A stretch of DNA of 64,000 nt from Lama guanicoe (lineage: Eukaryota). The first letter of the stretch is position 1, and every line of letters begins with the position of its first letter. A model generated the notes under the pieces. The model saw only the letters and a list, made by a program, of their open reading frames with translations, had not been told where the DNA came from and made no database searches. The stretch covers positions 3,640,273 through 3,704,272 of the forward strand of contig MU053873.1 of NCBI GenBank assembly GCA_013239625.1, read 5' to 3'. Position numbers and translations under genes: made by a program. Below, one piece after another: positions 23,866 to 31,309 of this stretch.

Positions 23866-24932
23866 CAAATTCAAAACTAAGAGATTTAAATAAATAAATA
23901 AATAACTAAAATAACAAAGCTGGAGACCTGTCCTCAGACCCGTACAGGCCCTGACACTTCCTGGCTGGGCGACCTTAACTAAGCAGCTTAACCTCTCTGA
24001 GCCTCAGGTTCCCAATGGCAAAAATGGGGATGATAATGAGACCCCCACATGGGGTTCCGGGGTCTCATGAGGCGACAGTGAGACCCCTGTGGAAGACACC
24101 CGGCCCGGGCCCTGATGCTGTGAGCGCTCAGCAGGAGCGGTGGCGGGGAGGGCGGCCTCTGGTTGTGTTTGTTACAATCATTATTATCGTTGCAATTGAC
24201 AATCGCGAGCAACCAGCTTGGTGCTGAGGCCCCAACAAGGCCACCGGCTTTCGGACTGTCTGGCTGGGTTATCTCGGCAACAGAGGAGATTAAGTAACTC
24301 AAAAGAGCCACGGTAGGCTAGCCGCCAGCTACGGTTACTAATGATTTGAAGCAGAAACTTAATCTCCCTCCCCCATTTCCCAGCTGATGCTGGGGGAGGA
24401 ATGGGGCTTGATGGTGGGGGGGGTGTGGTTTCTGCCCCCAGAACAGAACTGCAGCTACGTGGGGACTCGGGCCGCCAACAGGAAGCCACCGACATCCCAA
24501 AGACAAATGACAAACTTCACAGAAAGCTGCTGCTGCAGCCCACGCTTGGCCCCACTTCTAAGAAACTGACTTGGGAAATAACCCAAAAGGTGAACAAAGG
24601 TTTAAGGCTGAGGATGGTTACCACCAAGTTGCGCATGTAGTTGACACCTGGGAGCAACCTGAGTGTCCAACCGCGGGAGAACGGCTGATAAATCAAGGCT
24701 GGTGACACGCGCAGGTAATTAAGCAGCCATTAAACATCCCGTTTACAGAGGGTTTCTAGGTGATGCAGGCAAGCATTCGTGGTATCAGTGGGCACATCAA
24801 GAGAGACCCTGAACTTGTGTTCACTACGATGCGTGAGAAATTTAGAGGCAAAATACAACATAGGACCCTGGATTGGATCCTGGAACAGAAAAAGGATGTC
24901 AGTGGAAAAGCTGGTGAAATCTGAATCAAGCT

Positions 24933-25150
24933 GGGGTCCTTTCTCAGCCTCACTGGACTGACGTCTGGGGCTGGGTCATTCTTGGTGGCGGTGTCCGGGG
25001 CAGGGGGCTGTCCTGTCCATTGTATGATCTTTAGTAGCATCCCCGACCTCCAGATGCCGGCAGCATGCCCCCGCCCCAGTTATTATCAAAGAAAATCAAC
25101 AGACGGTTGCTGAGTGTCTCCTGAAGGTCGGCCCTGGATGAGAACCACTG
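24933..25150 (-). mobile_element. MER20-like hAT element
   Basis: ggggctgtcctgtccattgtatgatctttagtagcatccc...tgagaaccactg. Confidence 0.65.
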
Positions 25151-26839
25151 GGATCAAGTCTGGAGTTTAGCTAACAGTACTGCACTGTGGGTGCTAACAT
25201 GGGGGGACACTGGATGCAGACTACACAGGGACCCCCCCCCTGCAACTTTTCTATAACCCTACAAGTATTCCAAGGTAAAAAAAGTTATGAAGAAGTGACC
25301 ATGAGCAGAAACCTAAGAGCAGTTAGGGACCCGGGCTGAAGGAGTGACTGGCGAATGCATATTCTTTACCCCGTGAGTCCACGGCGGGGATGGGGAGGGC
25401 CACCCCCATCAGAACCCACGCAGTAGTCCATAGTCAACTGGTCACTCTCTCCTGGGAACGAGGAAGAGCTCACATGGTCGGTGTCCCTGGCAACCATCCC
25501 CCAGCCTTAGGGGCATGCCAAAGGTCATCCCAGTATCAGAGATGCAGATGCGGTTGAAAGGGGTTTGCTGTGAATAACTAGACACCTTTTGTTACTCTTA
25601 TCGCTTAGGAAATTCCAAGGGTTTCAGGAACTCTGTACCAGAACCAGGAACAAAGGCCAAATACATATTTTTCACTATACATCACATCACAGCCTCCTGA
25701 CACGGGGCCCAGAGCCTGACACACAGGCCAGCACATCGAAGTCATCAGGACCCTGACCCTGTGGGCGGCTGAATCCCAAAATGCAAATCATCACAGGCTA
25801 CTACTTTCCAAGTTTTCTACCAACTCCATGTATCATTTTTGTAATTAAAAAATTTTTTAAAATCAATTAATGTTGCCTTACATTTATAATAATATTCAAA
25901 TGTCAAGGATCACAGGAAACAGACTGGGAGGGTCTCCGGTTTTTCAACTGCAGCAGGGGACTTGGGAGGGAGAGCAAAACTGAAGGACAATGTTTCCGAA
26001 AATTATATTTTTAGGAGCTCCGGAAAATTCCCTGGGTGAGAAGGCATCTGAAGTATTTGCAAGCATTCAGCAGGGGAAAAAATAATATTTGCCAAGTTTT
26101 TCTTATTTGGGCATTCTCAACCAGGTTCCAAATGTTCTGGAAAACTCTGGGACCCACCTGTGAGGATTCTTTGCTAAGCCCCTCTGTTTGAGGAGCCCTG
26201 GTGTATGTCACATAGACCACCATCACCTCCTGCTCGTCCCTCTGTTTTACAGATGAGGCAACAGAGGCCCAGAGAGGGGAAGCAACTTGCCCAGGGACAC
26301 ACAGCAGGTCAGTCTCAGAGTCAAAACAAAATTTGAAAAGCACTTTATACCCCACAAAGCACTTCTACGTGGGTTCCCTGCTTTTGGCATTCCACCAAAA
26401 AAGTTTTGTTTTGTTTTTTTTCCTCTGTTCCATAGAGGAGAGGGTTCCAACTTTTTACTTTTGCTCAGTAAGTTCACGGAAAGGAAAACAAAATCTATTC
26501 TTTTCATCTCAGAAAAGACAAGACGTTTTTCCATGTACACAAAGGCAAGGATATAATTTCAGAATAAAGAAGAGTCCTGAAAATCAAAGGAATGTCGTTT
26601 TCTGGAAAACTCACTAACGCGCTCCATGTTTTTCTGGCTTTTCCGAGGACTGGAGAGGGGGCCGCTGTGCCCGCTGGCCCAGGGCAGCCAGGACCCCCTG
26701 CTCTTCTAACCCGCTCTGCCTCCCAAACCAAACCCCCATCCCTCTCCCAACGCCCCCTCCTCCTTGAAACAACCACCGTTTCGCACTGGAAACAGAGACA
26801 CCGCTGGCCAGATGAGCCAGAGAGCAAAGTTGGCAGGAT

Positions 26840-27240
26840 GGGGCGGGGGGAGGGAAGAAAAGTCCCGGCCGGCCCGCCTGCCGGACGGCGCACTCACCCA
26901 GAGGCACCGCAGGAGCTTCAGCAAGCCGGGGCAGTAATAATACTCCATGTCTGGCGCCCGGGGTTATGCCGCCCGCATCGCGCTCGCTTCCAGTCTCCCG
27001 CCGGAGGGGGCGGCCCTTCCCGCCCCGCTTGTCACGCAGGAGTCAAGTTCAAGGCGGCATGAATCATTCAGGGGCCGGCTCGCGGCCAGCGGACCAGCCC
27101 GACGCCCCGCTAATGGCCAAGGCCGCCTTCGGGGCGGGGAAGCCGCTCAGGTCCCGTGAGCACCCCCCTGGAGCATCTCAGCGGGGGCCCACCCAGGGGC
27201 GGCCCCTCCCAAACCCAGCCGAGTGGTCCAGACCCTGGAG
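26840..27240 (-). promoter_or_regulatory. CpG-rich island, putative intronic alternative promoter
   Basis: Dense CpG/GC content with GC boxes (CCGCCC) and a TGAATCA AP-1-like site near 27060, directly upstream (on the minus strand) of the 26948 ATG. Confidence 0.6.
26898..26948 (-). CDS. KIAA1671: Putative alternative first coding exon of a short KIAA1671 isoform (MEYYYCPGLLKLLRCLW)
   Basis: ATG in strong context (GACATGG), 17 codons, then donor TGG|GTGAGT in phase 0, the same phase as the donor at 31118; located at the edge of a CpG-rich island. Confidence 0.75.
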
Positions 27241-30200
27241 GGAGGCAGTTTCAGCTGTGTGGCAGAAAAAGAGAGGATGAAGCCCCTGAACTGAGTGTGT
27301 GTGTATGTGTGTGTGTGTGTCATGTGAGTTGTGAGAACGAGTTCCTCCCCCAAGCCACACACTGAGGGGGGCGCTCCCTGACTCCTTCCATGTAAAGGAA
27401 ATAAATCAACAGGTCCCCACAGCTCCTCCCAGCTTCAGTCAAGTTCCTTCTGCCTCAGCTAAGCTTCTGAGCAGCCCTGGAAGGAGGGCTTACATTTTAG
27501 CCCCATTTTACAGAGGGGAACACGGAGGCCCAGAGAGGGCTAGGGACTTCGTCAGGGTCATACAGCGAGGTGGAACCTGAGCCAAGGCAGGAGGAACCCA
27601 GGCCTCCCACCCAGCCTTGGGTTCTGCCTGCTTCTATGGGCAGCCGCCCAGCACAGGGGAGGAGGATGCTGAGGAAGGGGGAGACCGGCTCCCAGAGTCA
27701 CCATCTGCCAGCAGAGGGGGTAGGGGGCAGGGGGAGCATCCATTTTCAGAAATTAGAAATGCCAATTAGAGCATACCTGAGACTGACCCGAGGCAACCTT
27801 TCCTGGATGTTTCCTTCAAAAGAGTGTGATCTTAGCAAGCCATGCCACGTTCCTGAGCCTCAGTTACCCCTTCTGTAAAATGGCATGGATTACCCCTGTA
27901 GTTCAGGGTTTTGTGCACCGTTTGAGGTAGGATAATACCAAAACATCTTGTTTAGACCCCACAGTGCTTCCCTGGGGGAAACATCATCTCCACCGGCCAG
28001 ATGAGGAAACTGGAGCCCGAGAGCAAAGGGAGTTTGCCGGGTGAACGGTGGGGCAGCCCAGAGCTCCAGCTCAACACCACCTCCGTCGGGTCAGCCCAGG
28101 TTCCACGAGAGCCATATCTGAGGGGAGGAGGGAAAAGCTGGGTGGGGAGGGGCGTCAGGCCCTTGGCAGAGGCGCCGGGCGGGGAGCCGGGCTCCTGCCC
28201 CCCAGGCCCCGCCGACCATATGCACCACATGCATCAGCCCCGCACCCAAGCTGGGGCAGAGCAGCTGACAGGAAAGCCACAGGGACACCAGCAGGGAGAG
28301 CTGAGCTCAGCAGGGGAGGAAACCATGGGGCGAACTTCAAAGCTCTTCAAAAGCAGGCCTGTGGCTCCTCTGTCTCAGCGCCTGACATCCGGCAGGCGAT
28401 GCGCCCCAGATGATGGCACAGCTGGGGCCCCTGCTCACTGACTGACTGACTGACGACACTGCTCACTGAGGGGCTAAGAGAACAGCGGGAAGGTGGCCCT
28501 TGCCGACTCTGACTCACGTACGGAGGAGCTGTCCATCACCACCAGGGGCGTGGAGGCTGCTGACGGCCACTGCTCAGCCTCCCACTAGCTTGACAGAGAC
28601 GGCCCAAGAGAAATGGACTGGGAGGGGCCGAGGCTTGAAATAGGACTGAACGTTCCTCTTCTCAAGCGACCCTGTGTTCAAGCAGAGGATTCAGCATCTC
28701 TGAAAACATATCTGCTTAGGTCAGGAATGTCATTTCTCTATTCACAGGGCTGTCATTATGGGCTACCCATCCCGCAGGCACACACATACCCCTACCAAAC
28801 ACACCTCTTTTAGAAATAAAATAAAAACTTTTTTTCTAACAAAAAAAAAATCATTTCTTCAGAAGAGAAACAGCATCAGAGAAAACAAACCAGGGCAGCC
28901 AGGGCTGTGAGGATGGCAAGTGAACGTCCCAATTCAGCCCCGCAGCTCTGACGGGCTTGCAAAACTGACCTGATGGGACCTGATGGGGAACACAACACGT
29001 GCACCCAAATCAGTGACAAGTGTTAAATAAAAATCTAACTGGCTGCAGAAATTTTGGCTTTTTTTTTTTTTTTAATTTTTTTTTGGTTTAGAATGAAGGC
29101 CCTAATGCAAAACGGGTTAAAAACTAACAAGAAAGCAAAGTGTTCAAACTAGAGCACCCCCTATCCTGCCCTCTGGTGGTCACTTGTGAATATTGCACCC
29201 GGAAGCTGATAACCTTTTCATCAGGCAGGAGGAATGGAGGGTGGGGGGTAGACAGGGAAATTGCAGCAAGAAGCCCCACTTGGGTGATTTCTGATGGAGG
29301 ACATTGAGGTCATTTCTGATGCCCCCAGAAGGTGGAGGCTTCCAAAAGGGTCTAACATCCTTGGACGGAGTCCCGCCAGTGCCACGTGCCCACTGTATGA
29401 ACCTAGACCAAGGCACTCACTTCCCAAGCCTCAGTGTCCCTGAGTTGTGGCAAGGATTCAGCGAGATAATATGTGAGACAGGACTGCCCACACTGCATGT
29501 GTTCATTGAAGGTGGTGAGGTGTGGTTAAGTTAAAAAAATTTTTTTTCCCCAGCGTATAAAAATGGTGAAGTTTCACATTAAGATCGAATCAAGATCTTC
29601 AGTTTTGCTTGAAACATCAGATTGTCCAGCCACTCTGGGCAGGGATGGGCTGGAACGCAGCAGGGTCCCATCCCTCATCCCTGTCTGTCATTAAAATCCC
29701 CCATGCCTGCCTGGCCTGGCTTCTGGGGGTAGCTCCTGATGTGGAATCTCAAGGGACACCCCCTGCAAATCCAGATTCAAAAGCCTGGAGGCAACCTTGG
29801 TGTGTCTGTCTGAGGCTGGCATTTAGGAATCACCAGGTCAGGGGGTTTCTGAGGCAGGAGGAGTGGGGCCTGGTCCTCAGAATGCTGCCCCACCCCGTTT
29901 TACAGAGGAGGAGACTGAAGTTCAGGGAGATGAAGTTTCCTGTCCTGGGCCGTAAAGCTGGAAGGAATGGACCTAGGATTTCAAGACTGCAGGATCCCAC
30001 GTCTTGGAGATGTGAGAACAGGCACAGATACCACTGAGACGCACGGAGCCTCAAAATCAAAATGACCTCAGGAACAGAACTGGTGTTGCCTCATTAAAAA
30101 AGGCTTATCTCAGATGTCCCCACGTAGGGCCTGGGGCCCAGGAGGGACTTCACAAGCCAGTGCTGAACTCAGCAGATCTCTAAGGAACTCAAGTCCAAAA

Positions 30201-30898: not shown

Positions 30899-31309
<411 letters not shown>

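What the first reader, a model, noticed from the sequence alone, without database searches (positions are those of the whole stretch)
26840..27240. Intronic promoter and 17-codon alternative first exon: a short KIAA1671 isoform with a different N-terminus
Seen: a CpG-rich island inside the long intron, then on the gene strand GAC-ATG-G (strong Kozak), MEYYYCPGLLKLLRCLW and a TGG|GTGAGT donor in phase 0, matching the phase of the donor at 31118. It could therefore splice in frame to the same downstream exon. Knowledge: the KIAA1671 C-terminus carries a tankyrase-binding-protein C-terminal domain shared with TNKS1BP1, and I recall (unverified) a similar N-terminus on a rodent orthologue, so the exon may already be annotated elsewhere. 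Inference: promoter choice swaps ~1517 mostly disordered residues for a 17-aa leader.
Basis: partly seen in the sequence, partly recalled or inferred. Interest (0 to 1): 0.7.

Follow-up and report, generated by a model that had tools for sequence, protein, structure and literature searches.

The report
Short KIAA1671 amphipathic leader exon
A 17-codon extra start exon inside the KIAA1671 gene is real, already listed in human, mouse and camelid gene databases and kept in birds and turtles; joined to the next exon it is predicted to form a two-faced helix that likely ties this short form of an actin-associated protein to membranes.

Summary
Confirmed and already annotated. The minus-strand ATG at 26948, 17 codons and phase-0 GTGAGT donor at 26898 lie in the window's CpG-richest tile. 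The window is a camelid. RefSeq lists this exact 315-aa isoform (17+298) for alpaca, dromedary and Bactrian camel; human (NP_001373864.1) and mouse (NP_766472.1, Q8BRV5) have the orthologue, as do marsupials, turtles and birds. One RNA contig from a related species uses the donor, but splices to a stop-containing site at 25133; the productive junction lies outside the window and rests on database proteins. Beyond the annotation: leader plus next exon make a junction-spanning amphipathic helix (residues 7-25; hydrophobic moment 0.65, above all 1798 windows of the long form; the only confident part of an AlphaFold model) with conserved Cys6 and Cys23. Best reading (0.55): an S-acylated membrane anchor for the C-terminal region that resembles the capping-protein-binding part of TNKS1BP1, as in Gab1-beta. 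Acylation, localisation and start site are untested; no paper on this isoform turned up in ten searches. The scan had not noted this exon elsewhere; it had noted a sister start exon of the same gene.

The parts
26898..26948 (-). Coding part of the alternative first exon: 17 codons, MEYYYCPGLLKLLRCLW, strong Kozak context
   Evidence: 17 of 17 identical to the N-terminus of alpaca XP_072809762.1
26892..26897 (-). Splice donor GTGAGT, phase 0
   Evidence: an RNA contig leaves the genomic sequence here; read-through ORFs of other species continue W-V-S
26800..27300 (.). CpG island, likely TATA-less promoter and 5' leader; five GGGCGG boxes, no TATA or CCAAT match; four upstream ATGs with 3-11 codon frames (27176, 27067, 27060, 26978)
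   Evidence: promoter activity inferred, start site not mapped
31118..31252 (-). Last long-form exon before the shared acceptor; phase-0 donor that the leader donor substitutes for
24921..25133 (-). Side product: 213-base cassette behind an AG acceptor at 25134; three stops in the leader frame, then an in-frame ATG at 25040 matching the 40-aa start of Bactrian camel isoform X3; no GT donor at its end in this genome
37931..47678 (-). Span of the three upstream long-form coding exons (47678-46114, 44254-44167, 40693-37931) that the short form lacks

Best explanation
This is the conserved alternative first exon of a database-annotated 315-residue KIAA1671 isoform, and its 17 residues together with the first eight of the shared exon are predicted to form an amphipathic helix that is likely S-acylated and would anchor the short protein to a membrane. 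Shown: exon, frame, donor use, annotation, conservation. Predicted: helix 7-25 with L9, L10, L13, L16, W17, L20, F24 on one face and C6 and C23 at its edges. Inferred: the CpG island is the promoter; C6 and C23 (plus C15 in camelids) take palmitate; the anchor brings the C-terminal region that resembles the capping-protein-binding part of TNKS1BP1 to the membrane, apart from the 1517 residues of the long actin-associated form. C23 is also present in the long form but there sits in a non-amphipathic context, so promoter choice would switch on a latent site. The isoform itself is about 0.97 certain; the confidence below is for the membrane-anchor mechanism.
For: Annotation: 315-aa camelid isoforms XP_072809762.1, XP_064337191.1, XP_045369862.1; human NP_001373864.1 and mouse NP_766472.1/Q8BRV5. 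Of the best 120 of 336 short homologues, 38 carry the leader, 37 joined directly to DQL. Spliced leader proteins also come from assemblies of public runs (P0227 Logan only). Donor used in 1 of 4 runs laid. Hydrophobic moment at the junction: 0.66 (0.55-0.78) in 39 leader proteins against 0.32 (0.17-0.45) in 116 long forms and 0.29 in 58 MDYLGDK forms; 0 of 1798 windows of the alpaca long form reach 0.65. AlphaFold2: helix 7-25, pLDDT 89 over residues 11-20, the rest mostly below 60. K11, C23, F24 in 66 of 66 spliced leader proteins, not part of the selection pattern. Precedents: Gab1-beta, intronic promoter plus palmitoylated 15-aa amphipathic N-terminus (PMC6176924, abstract and passages); CBL2 (10.1101/2023.01.17.524453, abstract).
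Against: No experiment on acylation or localisation was found. The only RNA junction seen goes to a stop-containing cassette, not to the coding exon; it is one contig at depth 4 from a related species, and 3 of 4 runs showed no exon. An amphipathic helix serves protein binding equally well, and LxxLL is present at 9-13 in 47 of 66. C6, P7 and W17 were part of my selection pattern, so their invariance is partly circular (though no held protein had a 14-20 residue leader without them except one intron read-through). No Gly2, so no myristoyl partner signal. Capping-protein binding by KIAA1671 rests on 32% identity and a proteomic hit cited in PMC10092648.
Confidence: 0.55

Rival explanations
1. 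The junction helix is a protein-binding or sorting helix (LxxLL-like, export-signal-like or self-associating), not a lipid anchor; the cysteines and the Tyr run are contact or phosphorylation residues.
For: LxxLL at 9-13 in 47 of 66; near-invariant Y3-Y5 and invariant K11 on the polar face suggest specific recognition; the helix is confidently predicted without a membrane.
Against: Position 12 is F, I or S in 17 of 66, which breaks LxxLL while the face stays hydrophobic; net charge +2, mean hydrophobicity 0.73 and cysteines at both ends fit a membrane-surface helix; a separate 13-residue leader of birds and tuatara also makes the junction amphipathic (0.53, 4 proteins) with unrelated sequence.
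Confidence: 0.27
2. The leader only supplies a start codon; the point of the isoform is to express the C-terminal 298 residues without the long N-terminus, for example as a soluble competitor for capping protein.
For: Several unrelated N-termini are annotated on the same acceptor; the shared part holds the only Pfam domain.
Against: The leader keeps 12-15 of 17 residues from alpaca to primate, marsupial, turtle and bird, while the last 17 residues of the long-form exon keep 16, 13, 9 and 6 in comparable species; its helical period continues in register into the next exon.
Confidence: 0.13
3. In this camelid the promoter mainly yields non-productive RNA (leader joined to the 25133 cassette, a 32-codon frame and likely decay), and the coding isoform is minor.
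For: The one junction seen goes to 25133; Bactrian isoform X3 uses this cassette; four upstream ATGs.
Against: Leader intact and identical in three annotated camelids; the lay tool drops contigs that resemble human DNA, which could remove the conserved junction; the cassette has no GT donor in this genome.
Confidence: 0.05

Closest known systems
Human KIAA1671 313-aa isoform (NP_001373864.1; UniProt 'Isoform 2') and mouse Kiaa1671 isoform 2 (NP_766472.1; Q8BRV5, 308 aa)
   Same: Same 17-residue leader (15 of 17 identical to human), same phase-0 join to the DQLKQCF exon, same C-terminus.
   Different: Camelids have G8 and an extra cysteine at 15 (human S8, Y15). No functional study of the isoform found; the one KIAA1671 paper used the 1806-aa clone.
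Camelid RefSeq models XP_072809762.1 (alpaca X4), XP_064337191.1 (dromedary X3), XP_045369862.1 (Bactrian X4)
   Same: Leader identical; this exon is their first coding exon.
   Different: Computed models without function; none describes the helix.
Gab1-beta (PMC6176924)
   Same: Intronic promoter gives a short adaptor whose new N-terminus is a short amphipathic helix with cysteines; there palmitoylation and membrane targeting were shown.
   Different: Gab1-beta's new exon is non-coding and unmasks an existing helix; here a coding exon supplies most of the helix. Not homologous; acylation is untested here.
TNKS1BP1 (TAB182), PF15327 family
   Same: Shared C-terminal domain; human KIAA1671 1617-1711, about 124-218 of the short form by arithmetic, aligns with its CAPZA2-binding region (PMC10092648).
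   Different: No hit of the leader profile could be identified as TNKS1BP1 (library unnamed). The short form has no RxxxDG-type tankyrase motif by my pattern.
KIAA1671 391-aa isoform 3 (NP_001373863.1, MDYLGDK start)
   Same: Second alternative start on the same acceptor.
   Different: 95-residue start, exon outside this window, present in a carp, junction not amphipathic.

Membership tests
KIAA1671 short isoform (human NP_001373864.1, mouse Q8BRV5) | N-terminal M[ED]YYYCPxLLKLLRxLW leader | tested here: met
KIAA1671 short isoform (human NP_001373864.1, mouse Q8BRV5) | Exon lies in the intron after the last long-form exon and has a phase-0 donor matching the DQLKQCF exon | tested here: met
KIAA1671 short isoform (human NP_001373864.1, mouse Q8BRV5) | RNA junction from 26898 to the DQLKQCF exon in this species | tested here: inconclusive
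   Donor used in 1 of 4 runs, to another acceptor; acceptor exon outside the window, no genome held; junction present in camelid RefSeq proteins
KIAA1671 short isoform (human NP_001373864.1, mouse Q8BRV5) | PF15327 in the retained C-terminus | tested here: met
   residues 1637-1806 of P0011, E 4.8e-69; PF15327 listed for the short proteins
CpG-island promoter | At least 200 bases, GC above 50%, CpG observed/expected above 0.6 (criteria recalled) | tested here: met
CpG-island promoter | Mapped transcription start | tested here: inconclusive
   Contigs cannot show a start; one runs past 27250
S-acylated N-terminal amphipathic anchor (Gab1-beta, CBL2 type) | N-terminal amphipathic helix | tested here: met
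   Predicted only:
S-acylated N-terminal amphipathic anchor (Gab1-beta, CBL2 type) | Conserved cysteines in or beside the helix | tested here: met
   C23 in 66 of 66 unselected; C6 part of the selection pattern; both about 50 degrees off the hydrophobic axis
S-acylated N-terminal amphipathic anchor (Gab1-beta, CBL2 type) | Acylation and acylation-dependent membrane binding | not testable with these tools
   No report found
Myristoyl-palmitoyl dual anchor | Gly at position 2 | tested here: not met
   E or D in 66 of 66; no Gly2 in alignment A1
LxxLL nuclear-receptor box | Conserved LxxLL | tested here: inconclusive
   47 of 66
Capping-protein-binding adaptor (TNKS1BP1 type) | Direct binding of CAPZA2 by the C-terminus | not tested
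   Only similarity and a proteomic hit as cited in PMC10092648

The most novel reading that the evidence does not exclude
KIAA1671 uses promoter choice as a localisation switch: a 17-codon exon completes, across the splice junction, an S-acylated amphipathic helix that activates a latent cysteine of the shared exon and puts a capping-protein-binding tail on membranes; birds and tuatara built a second, unrelated 13-residue leader that does the same, and the 95-residue leader gives a third address. The mouse Swiss-Prot entry is this unstudied short form, while the one cell-biology paper tested only the long form.
Probability: 0.45. Interest if true: 0.5.

Novelty: already known. Interest (0 to 1): 0.3.

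Why it matters
The exon and isoform are known entries, so the finding itself is ordinary. The useful addition is a cheap, testable function for an isoform conserved across amniotes: a membrane anchor built across a splice junction. It would give a membrane-tethered candidate regulator of actin capping protein at microvilli or junctions. It also warns that mouse proteomic hits to Q8BRV5 (for example in PMC9792844, passages) cannot be assigned to the long or short form without leader-specific peptides.

Tried and rejected
No whole genome is held, so the acceptor exon could not be read as DNA. Motif scan and tblastn found neither the shared exon nor the MDYLGDK exon in the window. Fourteen RNA-labelled runs held about a fifth of the words; I do not count this as support, because X1's piece proved intronic (26718-26840) and X9 and X24 laid nothing; 4 of 24 runs were laid, over 26600-27250 only. 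The direct search with the 42-residue read-through frame found only four unspliced genomic ORFs. Pfam has no family for the leader. A profile of residues 1-48 against 1.84 billion representatives gave 57 hits; the whole leader matched in two spliced and two read-through proteins, fish hits matched only the shared exon, and three multi-stretch repeat proteins are unrelated: no evidence for the leader outside amniotes, but 50% clustering can hide it. Two paper searches were uninformative (one search did not require KIAA1671; one search matched unrelated strings). An N-terminal extension in frame is excluded by a stop just upstream (frame 26706-26963). Acceptor-like sites at 27255 and 27235 could make this an internal exon in some RNAs, but the leader frame has stops upstream, so that would not code through. 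The idea that the 25133 cassette is a MER20-type transposon remnant is recalled; no second copy was found in the window and no repeat library was available. No fold search or complex prediction was run: a single helix would not be informative.

Full report
Observation. The gene runs on the minus strand. At 26948 there is an ATG with G at -3 and +4, then 51 bases reading MEYYYCPGLLKLLRCLW, then GTGAGT; the donor is phase 0. The stretch 26840-27240 has 38 CpG, GC 0.71 and observed/expected 0.75, and 26801-27200 is the CpG-richest 400-base tile of the window. Five GGGCGG boxes and no TATA or CCAAT match lie in 26850-27450. In the 31 kb of intron held, the combination strong-Kozak ATG, 10-30 open codons and phase-0 GT[AG]AG occurs once. 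The four upstream exons give 1517 codons ending in phase 0.

Identity. The large exons match alpaca KIAA1671 isoform X1 at 98-99.6% and Camelus less well (906 against 880-886 of 920), so the window is likely a South American camelid. In full-length homologues the shared part begins at DQLKQCF, residue 1518 in camel, and forms that skip the 31252-31118 exon join it in the same frame. That exon is outside the window and no genome is held.

Annotation and conservation. The camel cluster holds 315-aa proteins, 17 plus 298, named isoform X4 in alpaca (XP_072809762.1), X3 in dromedary (XP_064337191.1) and X4 in Bactrian camel (XP_045369862.1); each starts with the window's peptide. Human NP_001373864.1 (313 aa, UniProt isoform 2) and mouse NP_766472.1/Q8BRV5 (308 aa) start with the orthologous leader. 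Of the best 120 of 336 short homologues, 38 carry the leader, 37 joined directly to the shared exon, and 59 carry a different 95-residue start. The leader occurs in placentals, marsupials, turtles and birds. It keeps 15, 15, 12 and 14 of 17 residues in a monkey, a marsupial, a turtle and a rail, whereas the last 17 residues of the long-form exon keep 16, 13, 9 and 6 in a baboon, the same marsupial, a tortoise and a parrot. A profile search found it in no fish protein, which is weak evidence of absence. A TCGA splicing paper lists a KIAA1671 alternate-promoter event without saying which (PMC6111597, one table passage).

RNA. Four of 24 listed runs were laid on 26600-27250. Two gave nothing and one gave an intronic piece. 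One RNA-seq contig (depth 4; 7 other letters and 17 gap letters, so a related species) covers 27250 to the donor and then leaves the genome. Its 28 loose letters match 25132-25105 at 26 of 28, behind an AG at 25134. So the donor is used, but this junction is not the productive one: the leader frame meets three stops after 15 more codons. An in-frame ATG at 25040 then reads 40 residues, 85% identical to the start of Bactrian isoform X3; in this genome the cassette ends without a GT. The lay tool omits contigs that resemble human DNA, so the conserved junction may have been filtered. The productive junction is supported by database proteins, some from assemblies of public runs (P0227).

Mechanism. 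With the Fauchere-Pliska scale (values recalled), residues 8-25 of the short form have hydrophobic moment 0.65, mean hydrophobicity 0.73 and charge +2. None of 1798 windows of the long form reaches 0.65. In the same register the junction scores 0.66 in 39 leader proteins, 0.32 in 116 long forms, 0.29 in 58 MDYLGDK forms and 0.53 in four 13-residue bird or tuatara leaders. L9, L13, L16 and L20 lie within about 30 degrees of the hydrophobic axis; C6 and C23 lie about 50 degrees off it on either side. AlphaFold2 on a 35-sequence alignment gives a helix at 7-25, pLDDT 89 over 11-20, in an otherwise low-confidence chain (mean 50.4). K11, C23 and F24 are present in 66 of 66 spliced leader proteins held (33 distinct); C6, P7 and W17 were in the selection pattern, but no held protein had a 14-20 residue leader without them apart from one intron read-through. 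The helix thus exists only when this exon is spliced on. I infer an S-acylated membrane anchor. Gab1-beta is the nearest working precedent: an intronic promoter yields a short adaptor whose 15-residue amphipathic N-terminus is palmitoylated and targets membranes (PMC6176924, abstract and passages). Plant CBL2 links a predicted amphipathic helix to S-acylation (10.1101/2023.01.17.524453, abstract). The cargo is the shared part with PF15327. PMC10092648 (abstract, section 8, passages) places long KIAA1671 at the base of microvilli and aligns human 1617-1711 with the CAPZA2-binding region of TNKS1BP1 at 32% identity, citing Ohishi 2017, which I did not read; the short form keeps that region and loses the weak CARMIL-like stretch 1013-1137. 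The main text has no occurrence of 'isoform' and used the long clone. KIAA1671 is also listed near Afadin (PMC11581034, table passages).

Against and rivals. Nothing here shows acylation, membrane binding or capping-protein binding. A protein-binding helix is the main rival (LxxLL in 47 of 66; conserved Tyr run and K11), 0.27. A mere start device is unlikely given the conservation and register, 0.13. Mainly non-productive transcription in this camelid, 0.05.

Novelty. The isoform is in curated human and mouse records and in camelid models: already known. Ten searches of the open library (listings, plus passages of six papers) showed no study of this isoform or its helix; subscription papers and supplements, including palmitoyl-proteome tables, were not seen and may bear on this. 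Interest 0.3: an ordinary annotated exon with a specific, cheap, apparently untested hypothesis.

Noticed in passing
window 25133-24921 (-): Cassette exon joined to the leader in one RNA contig; stops in the leader frame, internal ATG at 25040 matching Bactrian camel isoform X3; no GT donor at its end in this genome, so a possible lineage difference among camelids. Resembles a MER20-type transposon remnant (recalled, not tested).
   Followed up: partly
proteins P0131, P0344, P0310 (exon outside the window): A second alternative start, 95 residues (MDYLGDK), on the same acceptor: 59 of the 120 listed short homologues, human NP_001373863.1, and a carp protein, so likely older than the 17-residue leader.
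   Followed up: partly
proteins P0243, P0245, P0250, P0360, P0229: A third, 13-residue start in birds and tuatara, unrelated in sequence, that also makes the junction helix amphipathic (mean 0.53 for four proteins); swan has both this and the 17-residue leader.
   Followed up: partly
window 27176, 27067, 27060, 26978 (-): Four upstream ATGs with 9, 11, 3 and 4 codon frames; the last stops 15 bases before the main ATG.
   Followed up: no
window 27255 and 27235 (-): Acceptor-like sites with pyrimidine tracts upstream of the island; the RNA contig runs past the end of the stretch laid, so use of an upstream exon is not excluded.
   Followed up: no
window 27060-27070: Near-palindrome TGAATCATTCA inside the island, and GTCACGC at 27031; possible factor sites, untested.
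   Followed up: no
window 24532-24348 (-): Intronic stretch similar (47-65%) to the first 60 residues of a colugo KIAA1671 model (P0146), broken in two frames here; probably a spurious or repeat-derived model exon.
   Followed up: no
window 31252-31118 (-): This 135-base exon is skipped in several annotated long isoforms of other mammals, a frame-keeping cassette.
   Followed up: no
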